Source: a virus. From it: a DNA stretch of 64,000 bases. How positions within the stretch are numbered: the stretch's first letter is position 1; every line of letters begins with the position of its first letter. The translations under genes and the position numbers were made by a program. Shown piece after piece: positions 5,121 through 13,899 of this stretch. The notes under the pieces are model-generated. The model saw only the letters and a list, made by a program, of their open reading frames with translations. It was not told where the DNA came from and made no database searches. Where the stretch lies: the IMG/VR virus record IMGVR_UViG_3300008259_000347, positions 1 to 64,000 of that record. One strand, 5' to 3'.

Positions 5121-7457
5121 TTAGCTCGCATAAACGTCTTTGCCATTGGCCTTAGTAGCCTTAATTTGTCGTTGTCCAAGATCTTTTTGGACGTCAATTA
5201 GCGTAGTGACCTTAGTATTTAATTGATTTAACGCCACAACTACGTCGTTAAGAGTTGATTCTTTACCTGTGGCAGCAGGAGGTTTAGCTGCGTCTGGTTT
5301 CTTTTCTTCTGGTTTAGCTGCTGTAGTAGCAGGTGGTGTGGCAGGTGCTGATGGTTGTGTAGTACTAGCAGCTTTCTTTTCTTCTTCTTTCTTTTTGATT
5401 TCAGTAGGAATCTCAGCAGCTCTTTCTTTAATTTGGCTAGTAATTGGCATGCCATACTGATCAAACTTTAAGCTTTTCATATCTACTTTGTCCCGATATG
5501 AAGAACTAATATTAGCGTTAACAGTCTCACCCATTTTCTTAAGATCAATGTTACCAGTCTTAGGTGCTCCTGCCATTATGGCTGCTCTTTTTTGTTCGTC
5601 TAAGTCGTTGCCGCTAGTCTTAGGAGCACCTGCCGAGATTGCTGATTTTTTTAGTTCATCTAACTTACTCAGCTGAGTAGTATCCATTACTCCTGATTTA
5701 GGTACAGCTTTCATAGCTCCTTCTAATGTATTCTGAACCAAGGAATTTATATCTTTTGGAGTCATTATGGCTTCCATGCCATGTAACATCATAGGAGTAC
5801 CAGCACCAAAATTTTCTAGCATAGACCCTGTCATAGTAAGAGATCCTTGACTTCTGCTTCCTTTGGGCTGTGTTTCGGCTAACTGTTTTACTTTTTCTAC
5901 AGCAGCTTCGGCTACTTTTTTAACTGCTGGAATAGTTTCATCTATAAGTTTATGTGTAGCTTTGTTGACGGCTCCTGCGCTTTGTAAGAATCCATCAGCT
6001 TCTTTAAATCCTGCATTACCTCCAATATCTATTTCAGATTTTGCTTTCTGTGCAACTGTGGCTTTTTCCATTCCTGGTCGATCTTTAATCATTCCGCCTA
6101 GTGTTCCGTCAGCTCTAAAAGCTGTATTAGCTAGACCTTCTAAGGCTTTGTTTACTTGTCCTTGTATAGGTTGAACAAATTTTTCATTCAATACACTTTG
6201 AACATCGCCTATTCTACCTGTGAGACCTGCTAAAGCTTTAGAAGTAGCATCAACTGGTTGAGCTGTACCTGTTGCGTCTTTGCGCATGCCAGCTTGCGCC
6301 ATTTCTATTTCTTCCATAGCTTTTTTGGCAGCTGCAGCATATCCTTCCTTTGTTTTTAAGTCTATGTTGTTAGCAGCAGCAGTTTTTTCTATAGTTCGAA
6401 CAAAATCAATTTGTTTAGAAGCACCTTCATTAAGAGTTTTACTATAAGTGCCGCCAGCATCGCCTAATGTCATTGCTTGTAACTTTGTGACATCATTCAT
6501 ATCTTTAGTGGCTGCTGCCATCAAATCGAGTCTATGTTTATTACCTTGTTCTTCTCTTTGAGCAGCAGTTAGCGTCCTGTCAGCAGCGGTGTCGGCCATC
6601 TTTTTAGCAGCATTGGCTTGATCTTTATTAATTGCTGCTTGGGTAGCAGCTTCTTTAGTCATGATTTGACCTGTGGCGAATATTTCTTTAAACATTTGCC
6701 CTTGGCCCAATACTTGTGCTTCGTGAAGTTGCTGTCTGGCATTTGCTTCAAATTTAGCAGCTTCCTCTGCACTCATACCTTGAGTTTTTAATCTTATAGC
6801 AGCTTCGAATTGCATGTCTGCTTGCTGCTTTTTCATCATTTCTGCTTGCTCTGCTCTACTTTTTCCTGTGAGTTTGCTCAAGGCGTCCATTTCATTTGCT
6901 AATTTCATCGCATTATTAGCAGCAACAGACTGCATTTCTTGATCGTCTTTGAATTTTCCTCTTAGTGTAACGCCTTGTAGTGCTAAAACTTCGTTAATAT
7001 CTCTAGTAGTAAATCCCATAGCACGTAACTGATCAGTTGCTTTGGAATTATTGTCAAAGAAACTTTTACTGGCAGCAGCAAATCCTTCAGCACTATTAGT
7101 TAGGTTTGTTCCAAATCCTTTTAATATACCGTCCTTTTGAAAACTAAGAAATGATTCTTCCATTTCTTTAGTGCTCATTCTCATACCAACCGCAGCATTA
7201 CTCATGGCAAACAAGTCACCGCTGAAGTTCATGCCTGCTTTAGACAAGTTTTGATACATGTCTGCGCTTTCTGCTACATTTTTCTTGAGAGCTTCAGCTG
7301 AGGTAAACATCACAGATCCGGCTTTTTTGATACCATCTATGGTCATATCAAGTTTGCTCTCGGTATCGCCGCCACCGCCGCCAGAACTGCTTCCGCGTTT
7401 ACGGTCTCTTTTTAGCTCTTCGATCAGTGCGTCAAGTTTGGCATCAGTACTAGACAT
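5121..7457 (-). CDS. Probable tape-measure protein
   Basis: ~778 aa, Ala/Lys/Met-rich and helical. The start is moved to ATG 7457 (MSSTDAK, AGGA RBS). It lies divergent from the tail-chaperone-like pair. Confidence 0.55.
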   Translation of the reverse strand: MSSTDAKLDALIEELKRDRKRGSSSGGGGGDTESKLDMTIDGIKKAGSVMFTSAEALKKNVAESADMYQNLSKAGMNFSGDLFAMSNAAVGMRMSTKEMEESFLSFQKDGILKGFGTNLTNSAEGFAAASKSFFDNNSKATDQLRAMGFTTRDINEVLALQGVTLRGKFKDDQEMQSVAANNAMKLANEMDALSKLTGKSRAEQAEMMKKQQADMQFEAAIRLKTQGMSAEEAAKFEANARQQLHEAQVLGQGQMFKEIFATGQIMTKEAATQAAINKDQANAAKKMADTAADRTLTAAQREEQGNKHRLDLMAAATKDMNDVTKLQAMTLGDAGGTYSKTLNEGASKQIDFVRTIEKTAAANNIDLKTKEGYAAAAKKAMEEIEMAQAGMRKDATGTAQPVDATSKALAGLTGRIGDVQSVLNEKFVQPIQGQVNKALEGLANTAFRADGTLGGMIKDRPGMEKATVAQKAKSEIDIGGNAGFKEADGFLQSAGAVNKATHKLIDETIPAVKKVAEAAVEKVKQLAETQPKGSRSQGSLTMTGSMLENFGAGTPMMLHGMEAIMTPKDINSLVQNTLEGAMKAVPKSGVMDTTQLSKLDELKKSAISAGAPKTSGNDLDEQKRAAIMAGAPKTGNIDLKKMGETVNANISSSYRDKVDMKSLKFDQYGMPITSQIKERAAEIPTEIKKKEEEKKAASTTQPSAPATPPATTAAKPEEKKPDAAKPPAATGKESTLNDVVVALNQLNTKVTTLIDVQKDLGQRQIKATKANGKDVYAS

Positions 7458-8343: not shown

Positions 8344-8570
8344 TCTTACTTCAACTCTCGGATTCTGATATTGCATCAGTTGTCGATAGATATGAAGCAG
8401 AAATTAAAGAATTAAAAGACGAATTTTTTAGATTAAGTTGGTACATGCGAGGTGGTGTTACTGCTGATCAAATGTTTTATCTGTATGGTTATGAAGATAG
8501 ATCAATAATGAACAATATTATCAAAGAAAATATAGAACTGACTAAGAAGACAGGCACTAATTTCTTATAA
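8337..8570 (+). CDS. gp51-like extension in the -1 frame, probably reached by programmed frameshift
   Basis: Open frame RLILLQLSDSDIASVVDRYEAEIKELKDEFFRLSWYMRGG...ENIELTKKTGTNFL. There is no ATG/GTG/TTG between the slippery site and WYMRGG. The heptamer T TTT TTC is at 8331-8337. Confidence 0.7.
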   Translation, partial: RLILLQLSDSDIASVVDRYEAEIKELKDEFFRLSWYMRGGVTADQMFYLYGYEDRSIMNNIIKENIELTKKTGTNFL

Positions 8571-8573
8571 TTT

Positions 8574-9986
8574 TTATCGTGTTTTAATAAGCATCTTAAC
8601 TTCTGAATCGTAATTGACTCCAGGTTTTAAAGGAATGGCATCAAAAGGATTAGGCTTGCCTGTGTCCCTGGCTTGTGTAATAGCATACTGTACTTTAGGA
8701 ATTCTAAGTGTGGTTGGATCGTTAATTAAATAACCGTCTCGGTCTGTGACTGAAACTCCGCCAACACTGATCATCTTAGCATCTCGAGCAGCTCTTTCTT
8801 TTTCTTCTTTGTCTTTTAATTCTTTGTCAGGTTTTTGACTTCCACCACCAGGCTGTAGCTTATCTGATAGTGCTGGTAAGTTAATACCAAACTTAGCTGC
8901 TAATTCTCGTAATCCGTTATAGGCTATTCTTAATCCTGCTAGAACTTTGTCAGTAATCCAGCCTGTGACAGAGAACAACATCTGCACAGCCCATGCTTGT
9001 TGGAAGTCTTTGCCTTCTTTAGTAGTCTCTAACCAAGTGATAATAGCAGTTCTTCCTGCTATACCTCCAGGTCCTTTGCCAGCTACTAGATTCATTAAAC
9101 GTGCGCCAGCATTTAATATACCCATGCTAGCTGCTACAGCGCCGCCGCCTGCTATACCTGTAGCTGTGCCTGTTTTCATTGCTGCGATTCCAGCCATAGC
9201 AGCTTTACCTGAAGCGAACTTAAAGAACGCTGGAGCAAACCCTGTGGATGTTACGATACCAATGGTGGCTTTGCCTAGTAATGTATTACGCTCTGAATCA
9301 AACTTAGCTTCAGCATCACTATATGTCATGTCAGCAAAACGATTAGGCATCTTTAAAGGAGTGTTGTTCTTAGTGCTATTAACCCAATCTTCCCATTCCT
9401 TTTCTAATACGCCAATATTAGTATAATAATCTTGAATGTAGTAAGCACTGCCGCCAATGTTAACTACCCAATTATACACACTGCCTATTTCTTTTAATTT
9501 CAAACCTGCTTTAAACTTAGATTTTGCTAGATTTTTAGCCAATTCAGATTTAGGATAATCTATTTTTGCCTGTTTAAGTCGTTGTCTGTAGTCTTGATTA
9601 AATTTAGCAGGCTTTTTCTTAGTCCATAAGTCACTGACTTTAGCATTAAGCCATTTACCGCCTTTGGTCAATGCTGCTCGCGTAAATTTATTTTTACGCA
9701 TCAATTTTACTACAATAGGTCTACCTAATTTTGCTACTCCAGGAATAGCCAACAGCATCACATCGATGAAAAGATCATTCCATTCTTCTTCGCTGATTTT
9801 GCTAGGATCTTCGTTGTACTTGCCAATGAATTTAATCAAGTCAGCAAAACTCATAGCAGCCAATACCACACTGATAGCTGTTATAACTCCACCTACACTT
9901 AGTCCAGCTATAAGGGGAAGAGCTTCATCAAGACGTTCTTCCTCAATAGGATAATATTTTTCAGCGACAATTTCATATATTTTCAT
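8574..9986 (-). CDS. Putative internal virion/ejection protein with hydrophobic helices
   Basis: N-terminus MKIYEIVAE resembles the T4 capsid-targeting sequence. Several Gly/Ala-rich hydrophobic segments. TAAATA lies 7 nt before the ATG. Confidence 0.5.
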   Translation of the reverse strand: MKIYEIVAEKYYPIEEERLDEALPLIAGLSVGGVITAISVVLAAMSFADLIKFIGKYNEDPSKISEEEWNDLFIDVMLLAIPGVAKLGRPIVVKLMRKNKFTRAALTKGGKWLNAKVSDLWTKKKPAKFNQDYRQRLKQAKIDYPKSELAKNLAKSKFKAGLKLKEIGSVYNWVVNIGGSAYYIQDYYTNIGVLEKEWEDWVNSTKNNTPLKMPNRFADMTYSDAEAKFDSERNTLLGKATIGIVTSTGFAPAFFKFASGKAAMAGIAAMKTGTATGIAGGGAVAASMGILNAGARLMNLVAGKGPGGIAGRTAIITWLETTKEGKDFQQAWAVQMLFSVTGWITDKVLAGLRIAYNGLRELAAKFGINLPALSDKLQPGGGSQKPDKELKDKEEKERAARDAKMISVGGVSVTDRDGYLINDPTTLRIPKVQYAITQARDTGKPNPFDAIPLKPGVNYDSEVKMLIKTR

Positions 9987-10003
9987 AACTTAGTATTTAT
10001 TAG

Positions 10004-10087
10004 AGTTGAACTACGTTCAACTGCTCTTCGCTTGAGCTCGAGCATTTGCATAGATATAATTAGTGCGAAGCACTTAGATATTATCTA
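10004..10087. repeat. Cluster of short perfect inverted repeats with GNA triloops
   Basis: AGTTGAAC-TAC-GTTCAACT at 10004-10022 (loop reads GTA on -) and AGTGC-GAA-GCACT at 10062-10074, nested in TAGATA/TATCTA. Confidence 0.75.
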
Positions 10088-10090
10088 GAT

Positions 10091-10429
10091 TGTTCAGTCA
10101 CTCTTCGCCCGTTGCCAGGCGAAAAAAAGACATTATCTGAGTTGAACATTGTCACTTAGCGTTACAGCGTTACAGAGGCGGTCGTCCGGTACCTCGAGCT
10201 GCGTCTTCATACGACGGCGGCACACAAATATACGCTAACACACTTGTGTACGTGCAGGTTTTGCCTGCTCATTTTGCCTTTTATCCTTTTCAAACAACCA
10301 AATCGCAGGACTTACAAGCGATCTTCATCCAATTGGGTAGTGGTTGAGTACTCTTAACGGCAAGAGATTTCCGTCCCTGCGACCCGAGGTCCAGGTATAA
10401 GGGCGCACGAATTTAGCCTGCGCCAGCTG
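10091..10429 (-). ncRNA. Candidate large structured non-coding RNA, family not recognised
   Basis: GC-enriched non-coding gap with about ten helices, G-U pairs that work only on the minus strand, a GCAA tetraloop and a 6-nt loop pseudoknot. Confidence 0.7.
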
Positions 10430-10867
10430 TTAACCGTTTAACTGTTTGCCTTTGATGTGTGAGCCATGGACACGAACACTGATCTGACCATTGTAATATT
10501 CGTCAGATTCTAGTACTCGCCGTGTGAATTGTTCTCTTGCCTCAATGTAACTGCACTCTGCTTTGCTTTTACAATAATAAAGTATCTCTCTGTGAAATTT
10601 TTCTGTGCCTAATTGTGTTACATCTTTGTTGAGTTCGTCGTTGGAGCCGTAGTATGTTTGCCAGTCGGAATCTATTTTTGACTTAATTCGTTTCTTTTTC
10701 TTTGTGCCGTTTTTTAATTTGACTACTCGATATGTGGTTTTTGAAAATTTTGCCAGTTTTTTGCCTATATACATGCGTCCGCTGACTGTATTAGTGATAA
10801 GATATACAAATCCAATACAGTCTTCAGGAAGTTCCGTTATCAGTTGATTCTGGTGGTGCCACGACAT
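10430..10867 (-). CDS. Stand-alone GIY-YIG endonuclease (Seg-like catalytic domain)
   Basis: GFVYLITN...GRMYIGKK, SDWQTYYGS, REIL, catalytic E in YIEAREQ, and YYN. There is no C-terminal DNA-binding module. Confidence 0.85.
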   Translation of the reverse strand: MSWHHQNQLITELPEDCIGFVYLITNTVSGRMYIGKKLAKFSKTTYRVVKLKNGTKKKKRIKSKIDSDWQTYYGSNDELNKDVTQLGTEKFHREILYYCKSKAECSYIEAREQFTRRVLESDEYYNGQISVRVHGSHIKGKQLNG

Positions 10868-11114
10868 CAACTTGTTTAGTCTTTTTTAATTCTGCCTTGC
10901 GTCGATTTGATTCAAAGTACTTTGGACTGCTTTGACTGGGCTTTTGTTTCCTGATTTCTAATATTTCTGCCCGTCGTTGACGTGCCACAATTCGTATGTC
11001 TGCTAACAAATTGCGACACTTAATGCCAGCAACATGTGTTTGTTTATTTTCCCAATCTTGATTGTACTTAAAATACTCTCTAAATAGAGCCATTAACTGT
11101 TCATGTGTGTCCAT
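10824..11114 (-). CDS. Small basic helical protein, histone H1-like Hc1 family resemblance
   Basis: WENKQTHVAGIKCRNLLADIRIVARQRRAEI resembles the Hc1 pattern (KGNKAAGxRARKxxxEL). Basic tail. Confidence 0.5.
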   Translation of the reverse strand: MDTHEQLMALFREYFKYNQDWENKQTHVAGIKCRNLLADIRIVARQRRAEILEIRKQKPSQSSPKYFESNRRKAELKKTKQVDVVAPPESTDNGTS

Positions 11115-12892
11115 TATTGTATAATATCTAAGTCTGTGCTGTAACTAGTGAAGCCATTTTCCTTAATTACTTTAAGAACATTGTTTACTCTACCAATTAA
11201 TTCGTCTTTGTGACTGATCAAATAGATATTCTTATTACGTTCACGTGCCATTTTCTTTAATACACCCAGGGCATTTTCAACTCCGCTGGCATCTAAGCCG
11301 TTATCTATAAGTTCGTCTACAAATAACAAGTTTATGTTCTGGTATAAGCTTTCCCATACATCTCTAAATGCCCAGCTTAGTCCTAGTATCAGTCTGTTAC
11401 GTTCACCTCTACTAAGATTATCAAAGTCTAAGTCTTGTCCCAACTGTGTGATCTCTACATTTAAGTCGTTTAGGAATGTAACTTGATGAGGCAACCCCAT
11501 TTTGTCAAGGTAATATGTCAGTCTACTGTTCAAATAATTTAGATTTTGATCTATAATTTTCTTTCTTATAAAACTGTCTTTGTTAGTTAACAGTTTTAAC
11601 AAGAATTCTTGATGATCTTTTAATAAGGATAACTCGTTTACAATATCCCAGTTTATTTCTTGTAGTGCTGTGTTCTGTAGTTCTTCTATTTGATCTGTAT
11701 AAGGATCTGTTTCTTGTTGTCGTTTACCCAAGGCTTCTTCTAAGCTGTTTAGATTGTTCTGATGACGCAATGCTTCTTCTAAACTATCATAGAAAGTTTG
11801 AGGTCTGCCATTAATATCGCCAATGCTTTCTAGTTCTTCTATTATAGTAGCATAGCTATCACTGACTCCTTGTAAGAAAATATACGCATCATCTAGGTTC
11901 TTCTTGGCTACAGAACTCATTTCTTCGTGTTTATCTGTGTGAAGTCCTTGTTCGCAAGCAGGGCATTTGTTATCAGCAAGTTTATCCAACTCTTTCTTAT
12001 ATTTGTTAACTGTTTTGTCGGCCTGCATTACACTAGTTTCTAATGTAGCTTTTTGTTTGTTTAAATTCTTTATTTTTTCGCTTTGATCATTGTAGGTTTT
12101 TAACTTTGCGTGTTGTTCTAACTCTCGTTCAATATCAACAGACTGTAATTCTATAATCTTTTCAGCAAGTTTTAAACAGTCTGTTTCTCGTTGTGTAAAC
12201 CACGCACTCTTTTTAACTTCTAAACTATCGATACTTTGCTGTATTTTTTCATTACTTTTCTTTGCTGCTTCGATATTAGCAGATTCCTGTTGTATTTGAT
12301 CTCTAGTTAGTTTAACTTGTTCTTTTAATGTTTCTGCTTTCTCACTTAGAAGGGTAATTCCTAGTAGCTGTTCGATGATTTCTCGTTGATCATTGGCTCG
12401 CATACTTAAAAAAGGCTCTGTGTAAGTGTTCAAGGCAACAATGTGCTTGAACATATCGTGACTCATACCTAATAGTTCAGCTAGATCCTTTTGTGTTTCT
12501 CTAACATCCCCTTGACTATCATCGATTTCGGAATCTTCTTGGACGACATCGTTAACATAAAATTTTAAAACATTAGGTTTTCGTCCTCTTTCTATACGGT
12601 AATTTGCCCCGTCTCTTTCAAAAGATAACGTGACCAACATGTTTTTATTGTTGATCTTGTTAATCAGATTATCTTTTTTAATATTAGTCAATGCTTGACC
12701 AAATAGTCCATAACTTAAAGCATTTACTATTGTAGTTTTGCCCGTACCGTTGCGACTTCCGCTGTCGTCGCCACCCATGTCTAGATTTTCTCCTAGTACA
12801 AGTGTTAACTGTTCTCGTTCAAAATCTACTGCTTGAGTTTGGTTACCCACACTCATAAAGTTTTTTACTGTTAGTGTTTTTAATCTGATCAT
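11114..12892 (-). CDS. gp46: Rad50/SbcC-like recombination ATPase
   Basis: KNFMSVGN, Walker A NGTGKT, CPAC zinc hook, LSRGE signature, LLFVDE Walker B and ISH. Confidence 0.96.
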   Translation of the reverse strand: MIRLKTLTVKNFMSVGNQTQAVDFEREQLTLVLGENLDMGGDDSGSRNGTGKTTIVNALSYGLFGQALTNIKKDNLINKINNKNMLVTLSFERDGANYRIERGRKPNVLKFYVNDVVQEDSEIDDSQGDVRETQKDLAELLGMSHDMFKHIVALNTYTEPFLSMRANDQREIIEQLLGITLLSEKAETLKEQVKLTRDQIQQESANIEAAKKSNEKIQQSIDSLEVKKSAWFTQRETDCLKLAEKIIELQSVDIERELEQHAKLKTYNDQSEKIKNLNKQKATLETSVMQADKTVNKYKKELDKLADNKCPACEQGLHTDKHEEMSSVAKKNLDDAYIFLQGVSDSYATIIEELESIGDINGRPQTFYDSLEEALRHQNNLNSLEEALGKRQQETDPYTDQIEELQNTALQEINWDIVNELSLLKDHQEFLLKLLTNKDSFIRKKIIDQNLNYLNSRLTYYLDKMGLPHQVTFLNDLNVEITQLGQDLDFDNLSRGERNRLILGLSWAFRDVWESLYQNINLLFVDELIDNGLDASGVENALGVLKKMARERNKNIYLISHKDELIGRVNNVLKVIKENGFTSYSTDLDIIQ

Positions 12893-13899
12893 AAGTTATT
12901 GTATATTGAAAGTAAAACCTTTTTATCATAAGTATCGCTGTCTATGTTGACTAATTGATTAGTTACGATTTGATCTACACTTTCAAAGTCTTGTATTTCA
13001 ATTGTGCTGGTAATCTCTGTTTCTTTTTTTTCTGGAATTAGGGTAAGTTCTCTAATAGGATAATCCCCCATAAATTTTTCTTTAATAAAATTTGCTTCCT
13101 CGTAACTGATATCAATGTCTAAGCTGACTCTGAGATGTGCCTTAGGTAGTATAATACTATCAGCACGATCAATCAACTCGCTTAACTTAGCTGTTCTATA
13201 TGTAGGTTGATCGGGCCAAGTATGATATTCTGGTTTCTTACCCCATTCTAAAATCATCATTCCTCGGTCATTGTCCCAGTTATCGGAATAATTGTGTGGA
13301 AAACAATTACCAATATAAACCATATTGCCTTTTTGTTGACGTTTATGAAAGTGACCGCTAAAGCCAAGCTCGTAATTTGCGAAATGATTTAGTTGTATTT
13401 CTCCATGATCCGGCATCTGTACCATGGCATTCATGTAAAAACTAGGTAATTCAAAATGCCCAAACACATACTGTCCGCTTTGTTTGGCAATGCTTTTCCA
13501 TTCGTCACCGATTAGCCAAGGACATAGTGTGACTTCGTCTATAGTAATAGGATGATGTACTACAGTGACACCTGGAATGTATTTTCCAAACTCTACACTA
13601 TGGATATCCCGTTTATCTTTGTAATAAAGATCGTGATTACCAGGGAAAAAATAAAATTGATCAAAAGCTTTACCCAATTTTTCAAGGGCTCTAAGGCTAT
13701 AATCCATCGTAGTGATATTAAGGCTGTTGCGATTGTGATGCCAATCACCGAGAAAAATTCCAGTATCACACCCTTCCTCCTTTGCTTTAGTAATATACCA
13801 GTCTACAAAATCTTCACAGTCTTGATTATGAACACCGCTGTTAGATTTAAGACCAAAGTGTATGTCTGTTAAACAAGCTACTTTTTTAAAAAGGCCCAT
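12889..13899 (-). CDS. gp47: Mre11/SbcD-like recombination nuclease
   Basis: Metallophosphoesterase motifs TDIHFG, LGDWHH, GNHD, GHFE and SGHFH. Confidence 0.96.
   Translation of the reverse strand: MGLFKKVACLTDIHFGLKSNSGVHNQDCEDFVDWYITKAKEEGCDTGIFLGDWHHNRNSLNITTMDYSLRALEKLGKAFDQFYFFPGNHDLYYKDKRDIHSVEFGKYIPGVTVVHHPITIDEVTLCPWLIGDEWKSIAKQSGQYVFGHFELPSFYMNAMVQMPDHGEIQLNHFANYELGFSGHFHKRQQKGNMVYIGNCFPHNYSDNWDNDRGMMILEWGKKPEYHTWPDQPTYRTAKLSELIDRADSIILPKAHLRVSLDIDISYEEANFIKEKFMGDYPIRELTLIPEKKETEITSTIEIQDFESVDQIVTNQLVNIDSDTYDKKVLLSIYNNL

What the first reader, a model, noticed from the sequence alone, without database searches (positions are those of the whole stretch)
10004..10878. Minimal GIY-YIG nuclease followed immediately by a large pseudoknotted non-coding RNA: candidate RNA-associated nuclease or RNA-primed origin
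Seen: the 443-nt gap after the GIY-YIG stop is the largest non-coding stretch in the window and is visibly more GC-rich than its surroundings. Read on the minus strand, the same sense as the nuclease, it folds almost end to end. Helices (+ coordinates): GGCGCA/UGCGCC (10402-10424); CCUG-GACC/GGUC-CAGG (about 10376-10395); a junction closed by CAACCA/UGGUUG (10341-46/10295-300) containing GAUCGC/GCGAUU; GCAGG/CCUGC (10254-68). A 13-bp stem (10220-10251) has four G-U pairs, and its loop UUAGCG is exactly complementary to CGCUAA at 10156-61, forming a pseudoknot. Nested GCAGC/GCUGU, GAGG/CCUC and CGG-ACGA-CCG follow, then an 11-bp stem capped by a GCAA tetraloop (10101-10126) inside UGUUCA/UGAACA. 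The G-U pairs and the GNRA loop work only on the minus strand, which argues for RNA-level selection. Established: Seg-type homing endonucleases normally carry extra DNA-binding domains, but this 145-aa protein has only the catalytic domain and a basic insert (KLKNGTKKKKRIKSK). IscB and TnpB are precedents for a nuclease using an adjacent structured RNA. Inference: the protein and RNA may form an RNP, or the RNA may be a ColE1 RNA II-like or T4 R-loop-like replication primer. I do not recognise the RNA family.
Basis: partly seen in the sequence, partly recalled or inferred. Interest (0 to 1): 0.88.

Follow-up and report, generated by a model that had tools for sequence, protein, structure and literature searches.

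The report
Twin-box Polynucleobacter-1 phage RNA
The gene-free gap behind a small DNA-cutting enzyme gene of this uncultured freshwater T4-like phage encodes a real, about 430-base, doubly knotted non-coding RNA. Its first third is the orphan Rfam motif Polynucleobacter-1. The rest is uncatalogued and carries one 7-letter word twice, and the nuclease looks like a fixed neighbour, not the RNA's partner.

Summary

It is not wholly unknown. 10292-10428 is a full-length match to Rfam RF01718 (Polynucleobacter-1, 116.7 bits). The 2010 paper that described RF01718 already noted that it lies behind genes like PSSM2_218, shown here to be a homologue of this GIY-YIG protein.

New relative to print:
- a roughly 290-nt 3' domain with two pseudoknots;
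- two 7-nt boxes, identical within each of 173 distinct phage RNAs although at least 14 different words occur.

The RNP and primer readings are not supported:
- five loci carry a PD-(D/E)XK nuclease in place of GIY-YIG;
- eight have 0.8-1 kb of other genes between nuclease and RNA;
- one phage contig and 17 of 141 Polynucleobacter genomes carry the RNA without the GIY-YIG or PD-(D/E)XK nuclease;
- cultured phages carry the nuclease without the RNA;
- the GC-skew turn lies about 5 kb away.

Function remains unknown. My best reading is an autonomous RNA of mobile genomes that shares an operon with the nuclease. This scan has reported the same twin-box RNA many times on other DNA.

The parts
10004..10428 (-). 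The whole structured RNA, about 425 nt from just after the nuclease stop codon to the terminal hairpin
   Evidence: Conserved end to end directly behind the nuclease gene in about 75 of 80 nuclease-selected loci. Covariation.
10445..10451 (-). AGGCAAA motif about 20 nt upstream of the first helix, inside the last codons of the nuclease ORF. Possible 5' leader of the RNA.
   Evidence: The same motif lies at the same distance in GIY-YIG loci, in PD-(D/E)XK loci and in the nuclease-free locus L172. Its role is inferred.
10292..10428 (-). Domain A, the Polynucleobacter-1 RNA motif (RF01718)
   Evidence: cmscan 116.7 bits against a gathering score of 37, model positions 1-141 of 141.
10254..10268 (-). 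Hairpin GCAGG/CCUGC, the first helix of domain B
   Evidence: Watson-Crick covariation. Only 57% paired because the alignment is out of register.
10220..10251 (-). 13-bp stem whose loop UUAGCG (10233-10238) forms pseudoknot 1
   Evidence: 88% paired, 12 of 13 pairs with double changes.
10156..10161 (-). CGCUAA, the 3' strand of pseudoknot 1
   Evidence: helix 3: 95.2% paired, 6 of 6 pairs with compensatory changes..
10164..10215 (-). Pseudoknot 2 core. GUCGU (10211-10215) pairs with ACGAC (10181-10185), crossing GCAGC (10198-10202)/GCUGU (10164-10168) and GAGG (10192-10195)/CCUC (10175-10178). Invariant GGUACCGG and ACCGCC lie here.
   Evidence: helices 4-6: 97%, 90% and 94% paired. Invariant columns.
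10131..10142 (-). Box 1: ACUC + AGAUAAU + G (the 7-nt word lies at 10132-10138)
10103..10124 (-). Stem capped by a GCAA tetraloop, between the two boxes
   Evidence: helix 8: 97.5% paired.
10079..10090 (-). Box 2: AUCU + AGAUAAU + A (the 7-nt word lies at 10080-10086), 52 nt after box 1
   Evidence: The word is identical to box 1 in 61 of 61 aligned relatives and in 173 of 173 distinct phage RNAs.
10023..10073 (-). Variable tail: small hairpin GUGC/GCAC (10063-10073) and helix GCUC..GC-UCAA-GC..GAGC (10023-10043)
   Evidence: helices 10-12: 82-100% paired with double changes.
10004..10022 (-). Terminal 8-bp hairpin, the 3' edge of conservation. It has no U tract.
   Evidence: helix 13. The terminator scan does not flag it.
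9994..10002 (-). UAAUAAAUA, close to the T4 late-promoter word TATAAATA, just before the next gene (start codon at 9986)
   Evidence: TATAAATA or a near match follows the terminal hairpin in many relatives. That it acts as a promoter is inferred from established knowledge of T4.
10430..10870 (-). Stand-alone SegE-type GIY-YIG nuclease, 146 aa
   Evidence: Catalytic motif residues are invariant in 32-123 homologues. The fold resembles the I-TevI catalytic domain.
10824..11114 (-). 96-aa ORF of no known family; the N-terminal half is conserved in many relatives
11114..13899 (-). gp46 (SbcC/Rad50-like, 11114-12892) and gp47 (SbcD/Mre11-like, 12889-13899), the upstream genes of the same strand block

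Best explanation
The gap is one gene for a non-coding RNA of about 430 nt, read on the minus strand.

Shown: it has three parts.
- Domain A is the catalogued Polynucleobacter-1 motif.
- Domain B is an uncatalogued core with two pseudoknots, a set of invariant unpaired letters (GGUACCGG, ACCGCC) and two 7-nt boxes (ACUC-N7 and AUCU-N7, about 47-60 nt apart). The boxes change between relatives but stay identical within each RNA.
- A variable tail ends in a terminal hairpin.

Inferred: in this phage the RNA is made as the tail of the gp47-gp46-orf96-nuclease transcript. There is no spacer for a promoter of its own, a conserved AGGCAAA leader lies in the nuclease's last codons, and a late-promoter-like word starts the next gene.

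Inferred: it is an autonomous, trans-acting folded RNA carried by mobile genomes, namely T4-like jumbo phages of lakes and genomic islands of Polynucleobacter. In kind it is comparable to the large 'ornate' RNAs of phages. The GIY-YIG protein is a conserved, stand-alone DNA nuclease of the recombination operon. It is a fixed neighbour in this lineage, not a subunit or a guided enzyme.

Inferred: the twin boxes are two equivalent read-out sites that the same reader must recognise. It could be the RNA itself (self-association or a symmetric tertiary contact), its own DNA, or a product encoded in the element. It is not a single host molecule.
For: The RNA is real.

One unit of about 430 nt is conserved right behind the nuclease stop codon.

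It can be separated from the nuclease:
- a PD-(D/E)XK nuclease (PF24608) replaces GIY-YIG in L106, L118, L127, L155 and L196, and again in L290 and L311;
- 0.8-1.05 kb of other ORFs lies between nuclease and RNA in 8 loci;
- L172 has the RNA (RF01718, 64 bits) behind an amidoligase-like gene;
- RF01718 is found in 17 of 141 Polynucleobacter genomes, on chromosomes, beside DUF6641 and tyrosine integrases and without either nuclease;
- 530 cultured phage records hold the nuclease family, while the RNA gave no blastn match in the phage collection and RF01718 was absent from all five whole records searched, four of which hold the nuclease family (PA5oct does not).

The box word is independent of nuclease type.

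Twin boxes:
- identical in 61 of 61 and in 173 of 173 RNAs, with at least 14 words;
- mutual information links them only to each other;
- they are also present in the divergent 'type 2' RNAs and in bacterial copies;
- two copies in genome G112 carry AGAGAAA and AGCGAAA.

Metatranscriptome contigs of two studies bridge the end of the nuclease ORF and domain A at 10325-10534 (weak, contigs only).
Against: - In phages chosen only by gp46 similarity, every locus with enough downstream sequence has a nuclease gene right before the RNA or a gap of RNA size: 54 GIY-YIG plus RNA, 2 PD-(D/E)XK plus RNA, 4 divergent GIY-YIG without a type 1 RNA (at least 3 of them followed by a roughly 500-nt gap), and none without a nuclease. 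This is tighter than conserved gene order usually gives, and it allows a functional tie.
- Two unrelated nucleases that both lack DNA-binding domains occupy the same slot.
- Divergent GIY-YIG proteins come with a divergent RNA type.
- L172 has a GIY-YIG-superfamily gene (T5orf172 domain) 1.3 kb downstream of its RNA.
- No function, partner or transcript ends were shown. No cultured phage with the RNA was found.
Confidence: 0.5

Rival explanations
1. Nuclease-RNA partnership. The RNA binds the minimal nuclease encoded just upstream and guides, tethers or restrains it. It would resemble an OMEGA system or a type III antitoxin, and the twin boxes would be the programmable part.
For: A nuclease gene lies 0-30 nt before the RNA in about 97% of RNA loci and in all 60 gp46-selected loci. 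Both nuclease families lack DNA-binding domains. The conserved leader overlaps the last codons of both kinds of ORF. Divergent GIY-YIG comes with a divergent RNA. The nuclease is more conserved than gp46: 73-79% against 51-57% identity in distant loci.
Against: The same box word occurs with GIY-YIG and with PD-(D/E)XK. Genes are inserted between nuclease and RNA in 8 loci. The RNA occurs without a nuclease in L172 and in Polynucleobacter. The nuclease family occurs without the RNA in cultured phages. No sequence complementary to the boxes is enriched in the window.
Confidence: 0.15
2. Landing pad. The RNA gene is a conserved target beside which selfish DNA enzymes settle: free-standing homing nucleases in phages and integrases in bacteria. 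tRNA, tmRNA and rRNA genes attract such enzymes in the same way.
For: Three unrelated classes of DNA enzyme sit next to the same RNA: GIY-YIG, PD-(D/E)XK and tyrosine recombinase. The nuclease is more conserved than the flanking gp46, as expected after horizontal spread. Extra ORFs pile up at the same junction. The closest cultured relative, PA5oct, has gp46 with neither nuclease nor RNA after it. Preference of homing enzymes and integrases for RNA genes is established knowledge (for example T4 SegB in the tRNA cluster).
Against: Occupancy is about 100% in this lineage, whereas homing genes are usually sporadic. No RNA-only 'empty site' was seen next to gp46. The catalytic residues are under strict purifying selection in 123 homologues. 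The family is a near-universal single-copy gene of cyanomyoviruses (T4-GC 213), which fits a housekeeping nuclease better.
Confidence: 0.15
3. Cis-acting 3' element of the operon mRNA. A folded 3' end would protect the gp47-gp46-nuclease message from exonucleases, or couple nuclease translation to folding. It would have no role in trans.
For: There is no spacer or recognisable promoter between the stop codon and the RNA. RNA-library contigs span the junction. The RNA ends in a hairpin just before the next gene's promoter-like word.
Against: About 430 nt with two covarying pseudoknots, invariant unpaired letters and twin boxes is far more than a 3' stabiliser needs. In Polynucleobacter the RNA stands alone, divergent from its neighbour gene, with a TATAAAT word about 20 nt upstream. 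In L172 it follows an unrelated gene.
Confidence: 0.1
4. Replication primer or origin RNA, like ColE1 RNA II or a T4 R-loop. The transcript would hybridise to its own DNA, and the identical boxes would allow a shifted RNA-DNA register.
For: Box identity would let the RNA pair with the DNA at either box. Different words in two copies within one genome fit a reader in cis. The locus neighbours recombination genes.
Against: The cumulative GC skew turns at about 14-16 kb, where gene orientation flips, not at 10 kb. Seven nucleotides are too few for a stable hybrid. The bacterial copies lie in integrated islands with no sign of a replicon. No origin-type protein lies nearby.
Confidence: 0.05

Closest known systems
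Polynucleobacter-1 RNA motif (Rfam RF01718; Weinberg et al. 2010, Genome Biol 11:R31, PMC2864571)
   Same: Window 10292-10428 matches the whole 141-position model at 116.7 bits. The setting is the same: fresh water, Polynucleobacter, and a position downstream of genes like PSSM2_218, shown here to be homologous to this GIY-YIG protein (36% identity, E 4e-20).
   Different: The catalogued motif is only the first third of the RNA. The roughly 290-nt 3' domain, its two pseudoknots and the twin boxes are not in Rfam. The paper says only that 'the 3' half is not always detected', and that no purified phage held the motif. Here it is shown on T4-like phage contigs.
GOLLD, ROOL and OLE, the large 'ornate' RNAs of phages, prophages and bacteria (Rfam; cryo-EM in PMC12286853)
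   Same: Large, intricately folded RNAs of unknown function, common in phages and mobile DNA and found by comparative genomics. Their homo-oligomeric assemblies offer one way in which two equivalent sites in one RNA could be used.
   Different: No sequence or model match. This RNA is smaller. Oligomerisation was not tested. No twin-box feature is described for them, to my knowledge.
OMEGA systems: IscB with HEARO/omega RNA, TnpB with reRNA
   Same: A nuclease gene sits directly beside a large structured RNA on mobile DNA, and the RNA has a short fast-changing segment.
   Different: The nucleases here are GIY-YIG or PD-(D/E)XK, not RuvC/HNH. The RNA occurs without them and they occur without it. 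The variable word is internal and duplicated, not a terminal guide. No matching target was found.
Free-standing GIY-YIG homing endonucleases of T-even phages (SegA-G; I-TevI catalytic domain, PDB 1LN0 and 1MK0)
   Same: SegE-type GIY-YIG domain (PF19835, E 2.6e-33). The best meaningful fold match is the I-TevI catalytic domain (Foldseek probability 0.98, TM 0.66 normalised to the target).
   Different: There is no C-terminal DNA-binding domain. The gene is present in every locus of the lineage, not sporadically, and the family is a near-universal 145-aa gene of cyanomyoviruses.
cow-rumen-2 RNA motif (Rfam RF02947)
   Same: A weak alignment to 10156-10251 shares a hairpin with a UAGC loop, GCCGCC, GGA-GACC and GUAA.
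   Different: 18.4 bits against a gathering score of 66, E 1.5. This is not a membership-level match, only a lead to a possible wider superfamily.

Membership tests
Rfam RF01718 Polynucleobacter-1 | Covariance-model score at or above the curated gathering score, over the whole model | tested here: met
   116.7 bits against 37, model positions 1-141 of 141, E 1e-24.
Rfam RF01718 Polynucleobacter-1 | Helices of the model are formed and covary in relatives | tested here: met
   All model helices are formed in the cmscan alignment. Watson-Crick covariation for the first hairpin, the closing helix and the GAUCGC/GCGAUU hairpin.
Rfam RF01718 Polynucleobacter-1 | Context given by its authors: downstream of GOS11034 / PSSM2_218-like genes, in fresh water | tested here: met
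   PSSM2_218 is homologous to the upstream ORF. The DNA is held by lake and freshwater runs from 15 studies.
GIY-YIG nuclease, SegE type (Pfam PF19835) | Profile match and conserved catalytic motif residues (Y..YIG, R, E, N) | tested here: met
   E 2.6e-33. G20 F21 Y23, Y34 G36, R94, E110 and N127 are invariant in 32 homologues and conserved in 123. The fold resembles I-TevI.
Free-standing homing endonuclease (Seg-like behaviour) | Sporadic presence among close relatives, plus a DNA-binding domain that sets the target | tested here: not met
   A nuclease is present in 60 of 60 gp46-selected loci. There is no second domain.
RNA-guided nuclease system (OMEGA-like) | Obligate pairing of one nuclease family with its RNA | tested here: not met
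   Nuclease swapped, separated or absent. Nuclease without the RNA.
RNA-guided nuclease system (OMEGA-like) | A variable guide segment complementary to a DNA target | tested here: inconclusive
   The twin boxes are variable. No complementary site was found in cis or enriched in the window. Whole genomes of relatives were not searched.
ColE1 RNA II-like or R-loop origin | The locus coincides with a replication origin | tested here: not met
   The cumulative GC-skew minimum lies at 14-16 kb. This is indirect, because the skew follows gene orientation in such phages.
tmRNA / tRNA / group I intron / small self-cleaving ribozymes | Match to the family models | tested here: not met
   ARAGORN finds none. 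No Rfam match even at E 10.
Intrinsic terminator (terminal hairpin) | G+C-rich stem followed by a U tract | tested here: not met
   The hairpin at 10004-10022 is not flagged by the scan. It is followed by CUCUAAUAAAU.

The most novel reading that the evidence does not exclude
The twin 7-nt boxes are a programmable address. The RNA would lend sequence recognition to whichever minimal DNA enzyme is encoded beside it: GIY-YIG or PD-(D/E)XK nuclease in phages, a short tyrosine recombinase in Polynucleobacter islands. It would hold two identical DNA (or RNA) sites at once. That would be a new kind of RNA-directed DNA cutting or joining on mobile elements.
Probability: 0.05. Interest if true: 0.95.

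Novelty: new variant of a known kind. Interest (0 to 1): 0.6.

Why it matters
Polynucleobacter-1 has been an orphan motif since 2010. This locus shows that it is only the head of an RNA three times larger. That RNA is among the commonest non-coding elements of uncultured freshwater T4-like phages: more than 580 relatives of the neighbouring nuclease gene were found in IMG/VR, and nearly all of the loci examined carry the RNA.

The RNA also lives in bacterial genomic islands. Its twin boxes follow a rule of identity, not complementarity, held across at least 14 words. No standard RNA mechanism explains this, so there is an unknown reader to find.

Cultured Polynucleobacter strains carry chromosomal copies, which makes the question testable at the bench. 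For annotation, the result also corrects the 'NAD synthetase' label on the GIY-YIG family.

Tried and rejected
- tRNA, tmRNA, group I intron and small ribozymes: no ARAGORN or Rfam match. The hammerhead-like CUGA..GAAAC strings do not keep the invariant core.
- 'Sense codon plus UAA/UGA stop' reading of the boxes, with a 50-nt bypass like T4 gene 60 (from memory). Dropped because the bacterial words (AGCGAAA, AACAAAA) and AGUUGAA lack the stop, and the only ORF through the boxes is not conserved (read).
- CsrA-type GGA sites: most words lack GGA.
- Pairing of the boxes with each other or with a third segment in cis: no exact reverse complement of any 7-nt word in 63 RNAs, only four scattered 6-mer matches, and no third covarying column apart from a clade-linked position at 10096.
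- Complement of the boxes elsewhere in the window: 23 near-matches against 23 expected. The sense word is slightly enriched (8 against 2.9), which I judged uninformative.
- Local mini-hairpins or a UGUUCA/UGAACA helix as a general solution: not conserved across clades.
- RNA in cultured phages: blastn found nothing, and RF01718 is absent from the PA5oct, Melnitz, P-HM1, phiN3 and P-SSM2 records.
- Scan of bacterial genome contigs with a domain B pattern: only short MAG contigs carrying gp46 or GIY-YIG, that is mis-binned phage DNA, and chance hits.
- Homology between orf96 and DUF6641: none.
- PDB sequence searches with the two nucleases: nothing significant.
- Read laying: the two RNA-library runs gave contigs only over 10325-10555 and 10730-10789 and none over domain B. 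This shows nothing about transcript ends or levels.
- The first call of the search of earlier findings failed.
Full report
WHAT IS THERE

The window is part of a 78-kb IMG/VR record of an uncultured T4-like phage. On the minus strand lie gp47 (12889-13899) and gp46 (11114-12892). These are followed by a 96-aa ORF, a 146-aa ORF (10430-10870) and then 443 bases without an ORF. Once the ORF running off the window start is counted, this is the largest ORF-free stretch of the window. Its G+C is 0.45-0.48 against about 0.36 around it. The nearest cultured relatives by gp46 DNA are the Pseudomonas jumbo phages of the PA5oct group. The DNA is held by lake and freshwater runs of many studies.

THE RNA IS REAL

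Rfam places 10292-10428 (minus) in RF01718, Polynucleobacter-1, at 116.7 bits over the whole model. Nothing in Rfam matches the remaining 290 nt, apart from a sub-threshold likeness to cow-rumen-2.

A search with the 146-aa protein found more than 583 relatives in IMG/VR. In about 75 of the 80 loci kept, the whole 425-nt gap sequence is conserved and starts 0-30 nt after the stop codon.

- 85.2% paired cells against 70.0% in shuffles;
- a covariation score of 0.44 against 0.18 (0 of 500 shuffles reach it) and about 0.1 with slid partners.

The 13-bp stem, the loop pseudoknot UUAGCG/CGCUAA, GCAGC/GCUGU, GAGG/CCUC, the GCAA-capped stem, two tail helices and the terminal hairpin all show compensatory changes. 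An alignment-wide mutual-information scan recovers the same helices and three of the four domain A helices.

There are two corrections:
- GUCGU/ACGAC pairs (97%) in place of the proposed CGG-ACGA-CCG hairpin, which gives a second pseudoknot.
- UGUUCA/UGAACA is weak (66%).

Folding energy alone would not have made the case: z is -2.4 on the minus strand and -2.0 on the plus strand.

THE TWIN BOXES

Two 12-nt stretches, 52 nt apart, flank the GCAA hairpin: ACUC-AGAUAAU-G (10131-10142) and AUCU-AGAUAAU-A (10079-10090). I noticed them and tabulated them.

- The inner 7-nt word differs between relatives: AGAUAAU, GGAUAAU, GGAUGAU, AGAUGAU, GGAUGAA, GCAUAAU, GAAUAAU and others.
- The variable positions share information only with their twin. 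No complementary partner exists in cis or is enriched in the window.
- The rule also holds in PD-(D/E)XK loci, in a divergent 'type 2' RNA behind divergent GIY-YIG genes (ACGUGAA, ACAUGAA, GGUGAAU), in L172 (AGUUGAA) and in bacterial copies (AGCGAAA, AACAAAA, AUCAAAA, AGAGAAA).
- The only exceptions are two bacterial copies with a single A/G difference.
- One Polynucleobacter genome holds two copies with different words, each self-consistent.

IS THE NUCLEASE A PARTNER?

The protein is a stand-alone SegE-type GIY-YIG domain. Its catalytic residues are invariant. The AlphaFold model (pLDDT 87) resembles the I-TevI catalytic domain, with a long basic beta-hairpin added. It is homologous to PSSM2_218 of cyanophage P-SSM2. 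That is the gene the 2010 authors named as the usual upstream neighbour of Polynucleobacter-1, so the pairing itself is in print.

For a functional tie:
- the pairing is very tight in this lineage, with 54 GIY-YIG plus RNA, 2 PD-(D/E)XK plus RNA, 4 divergent GIY-YIG without a type 1 RNA (at least 3 followed by a roughly 500-nt gap) and none without a nuclease among gp46-selected loci;
- a conserved AGGCAAA leader lies inside the last codons of both kinds of nuclease ORF.

Against it:
- a scan for the RNA core that was blind to the nuclease found five loci with an unrelated PD-(D/E)XK nuclease in the same slot;
- eight loci have 0.8-1.05 kb of other genes between nuclease and RNA;
- in L172 the RNA follows an amidoligase-like gene;
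- RF01718 is on the chromosome of 17 of 141 Polynucleobacter genomes, next to a divergent DUF6641 gene and tyrosine integrases in an island with a C5 methylase, and without either nuclease;
- the nuclease family is a near-universal gene of cultured cyanomyoviruses, Melnitz and rhizobiophages, where no RNA follows it;
- the same word AGAUAAU occurs with both nuclease families.

I read the nuclease as a neighbour in the same operon. It is either a housekeeping nuclease of the recombination module, displaced in some phages by a resolvase-like PD-(D/E)XK enzyme (PHROG 244), or a very successful selfish gene parked at a conserved RNA gene.

OTHER READINGS

- An origin is not supported. The GC skew turns at 14-16 kb, where gene orientation flips.
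- A pure 3' stabiliser does not fit the complexity, nor the free-standing bacterial copies, which have a TATAAAT word about 20 nt upstream.
- Two metatranscriptome contigs span the ORF-RNA junction. This fits co-transcription but proves little.

STANDING AND LIMITS

Relative to print, this is a member of RF01718 whose full extent, 3' domain, pseudoknots, twin boxes, phage home and alternative neighbours are undescribed. No paper other than the 2010 one mentions the motif.

Relative to this scan, the same 'twin-box' RNA has been reported many times on other DNA, with the same conclusions. I reached the boxes independently before reading those notes. One note prompted the look into bacterial genomes.

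Function, partner and transcript ends remain unknown. All mechanism statements beyond the anatomy are inference.

Noticed in passing
L300:6447-6960, L305:6336-6900, L309:6441-6960, L064:3010-3400: Behind divergent GIY-YIG genes (45-56% identity) lies a different RNA of about 500 nt ('type 2'). It lacks GGUACCGG/ACCGCC and gives no RF01718 match (L064 was scanned with Rfam; L300, L305 and L309 were checked only with the type 1 profile). It keeps the module ACUC-N7, hairpin, GUCUGACUGAAAC, AUCU-N7 with identical words (ACGUGAA, ACAUGAA, GGUGAAU).
   Followed up: partly
L172:3911-4304, 5169-5240, 8395-8871: A phage contig with a permuted (two-piece) tmRNA, a tRNA and a twin-box RNA (word AGUUGAA). 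The RNA follows a 649-aa amidoligase-like ORF with no nuclease upstream. A T5orf172 (GIY-YIG superfamily) ORF lies 1.3 kb downstream.
   Followed up: partly
L025:3429-4454, L107:7888-8814, L112:4369-5259, L122:10375-11148, L160:536-1606: ORFs of 257-356 aa are inserted exactly between the GIY-YIG gene and the RNA. One is methyltransferase-like (PF08003) and the rest have no family. The junction seems to collect extra genes.
   Followed up: partly
G112:C1:401229-401366 and 419563-419698 (L327, L328); L326: One Polynucleobacter chromosome holds two RNA copies 18 kb apart on the same strand, with different box words. In G122 the RNA sits between a 430-aa integrase plus DUF6641 and a 198-aa tyrosine recombinase, in an island with a C5 DNA methylase.
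   Followed up: partly
window 10430-10870; L203, L204, L330: GenBank and PHROG label this GIY-YIG family (PHROG 447, cyanophage cluster T4-GC 213, for example PSSM2_218) 'NAD synthetase'. This looks like a propagated mis-annotation.
   Followed up: partly
L331 (PA5oct, MK797984.1 72650-75166): In the closest cultured relative, the gp46 homologue is followed at once by a convergent structural gene, with neither nuclease nor RNA. A 660-nt stretch without annotated genes lies 2 kb further on (L331:7105-7769) and was not examined.
   Followed up: no
window 10156-10251 (minus): Sub-threshold likeness to the cow-rumen-2 motif (RF02947, 18.4 bits), sharing a UAGC loop, GCCGCC and GGA-GACC. It may point to a wider superfamily of this pseudoknot core.
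   Followed up: no
window 10445-10451 and 10272-10278 (minus): The word AGGCAAA precedes both domain A and domain B, each time followed by a GCAGG-type hairpin. This may be a trace of an internal duplication or a shared processing signal.
   Followed up: no
window 8574-9986 (minus): The gene after the RNA (470 aa, no family, hydrophobic N-terminus) is not conserved among relatives. What follows the RNA differs from phage to phage.
   Followed up: partly
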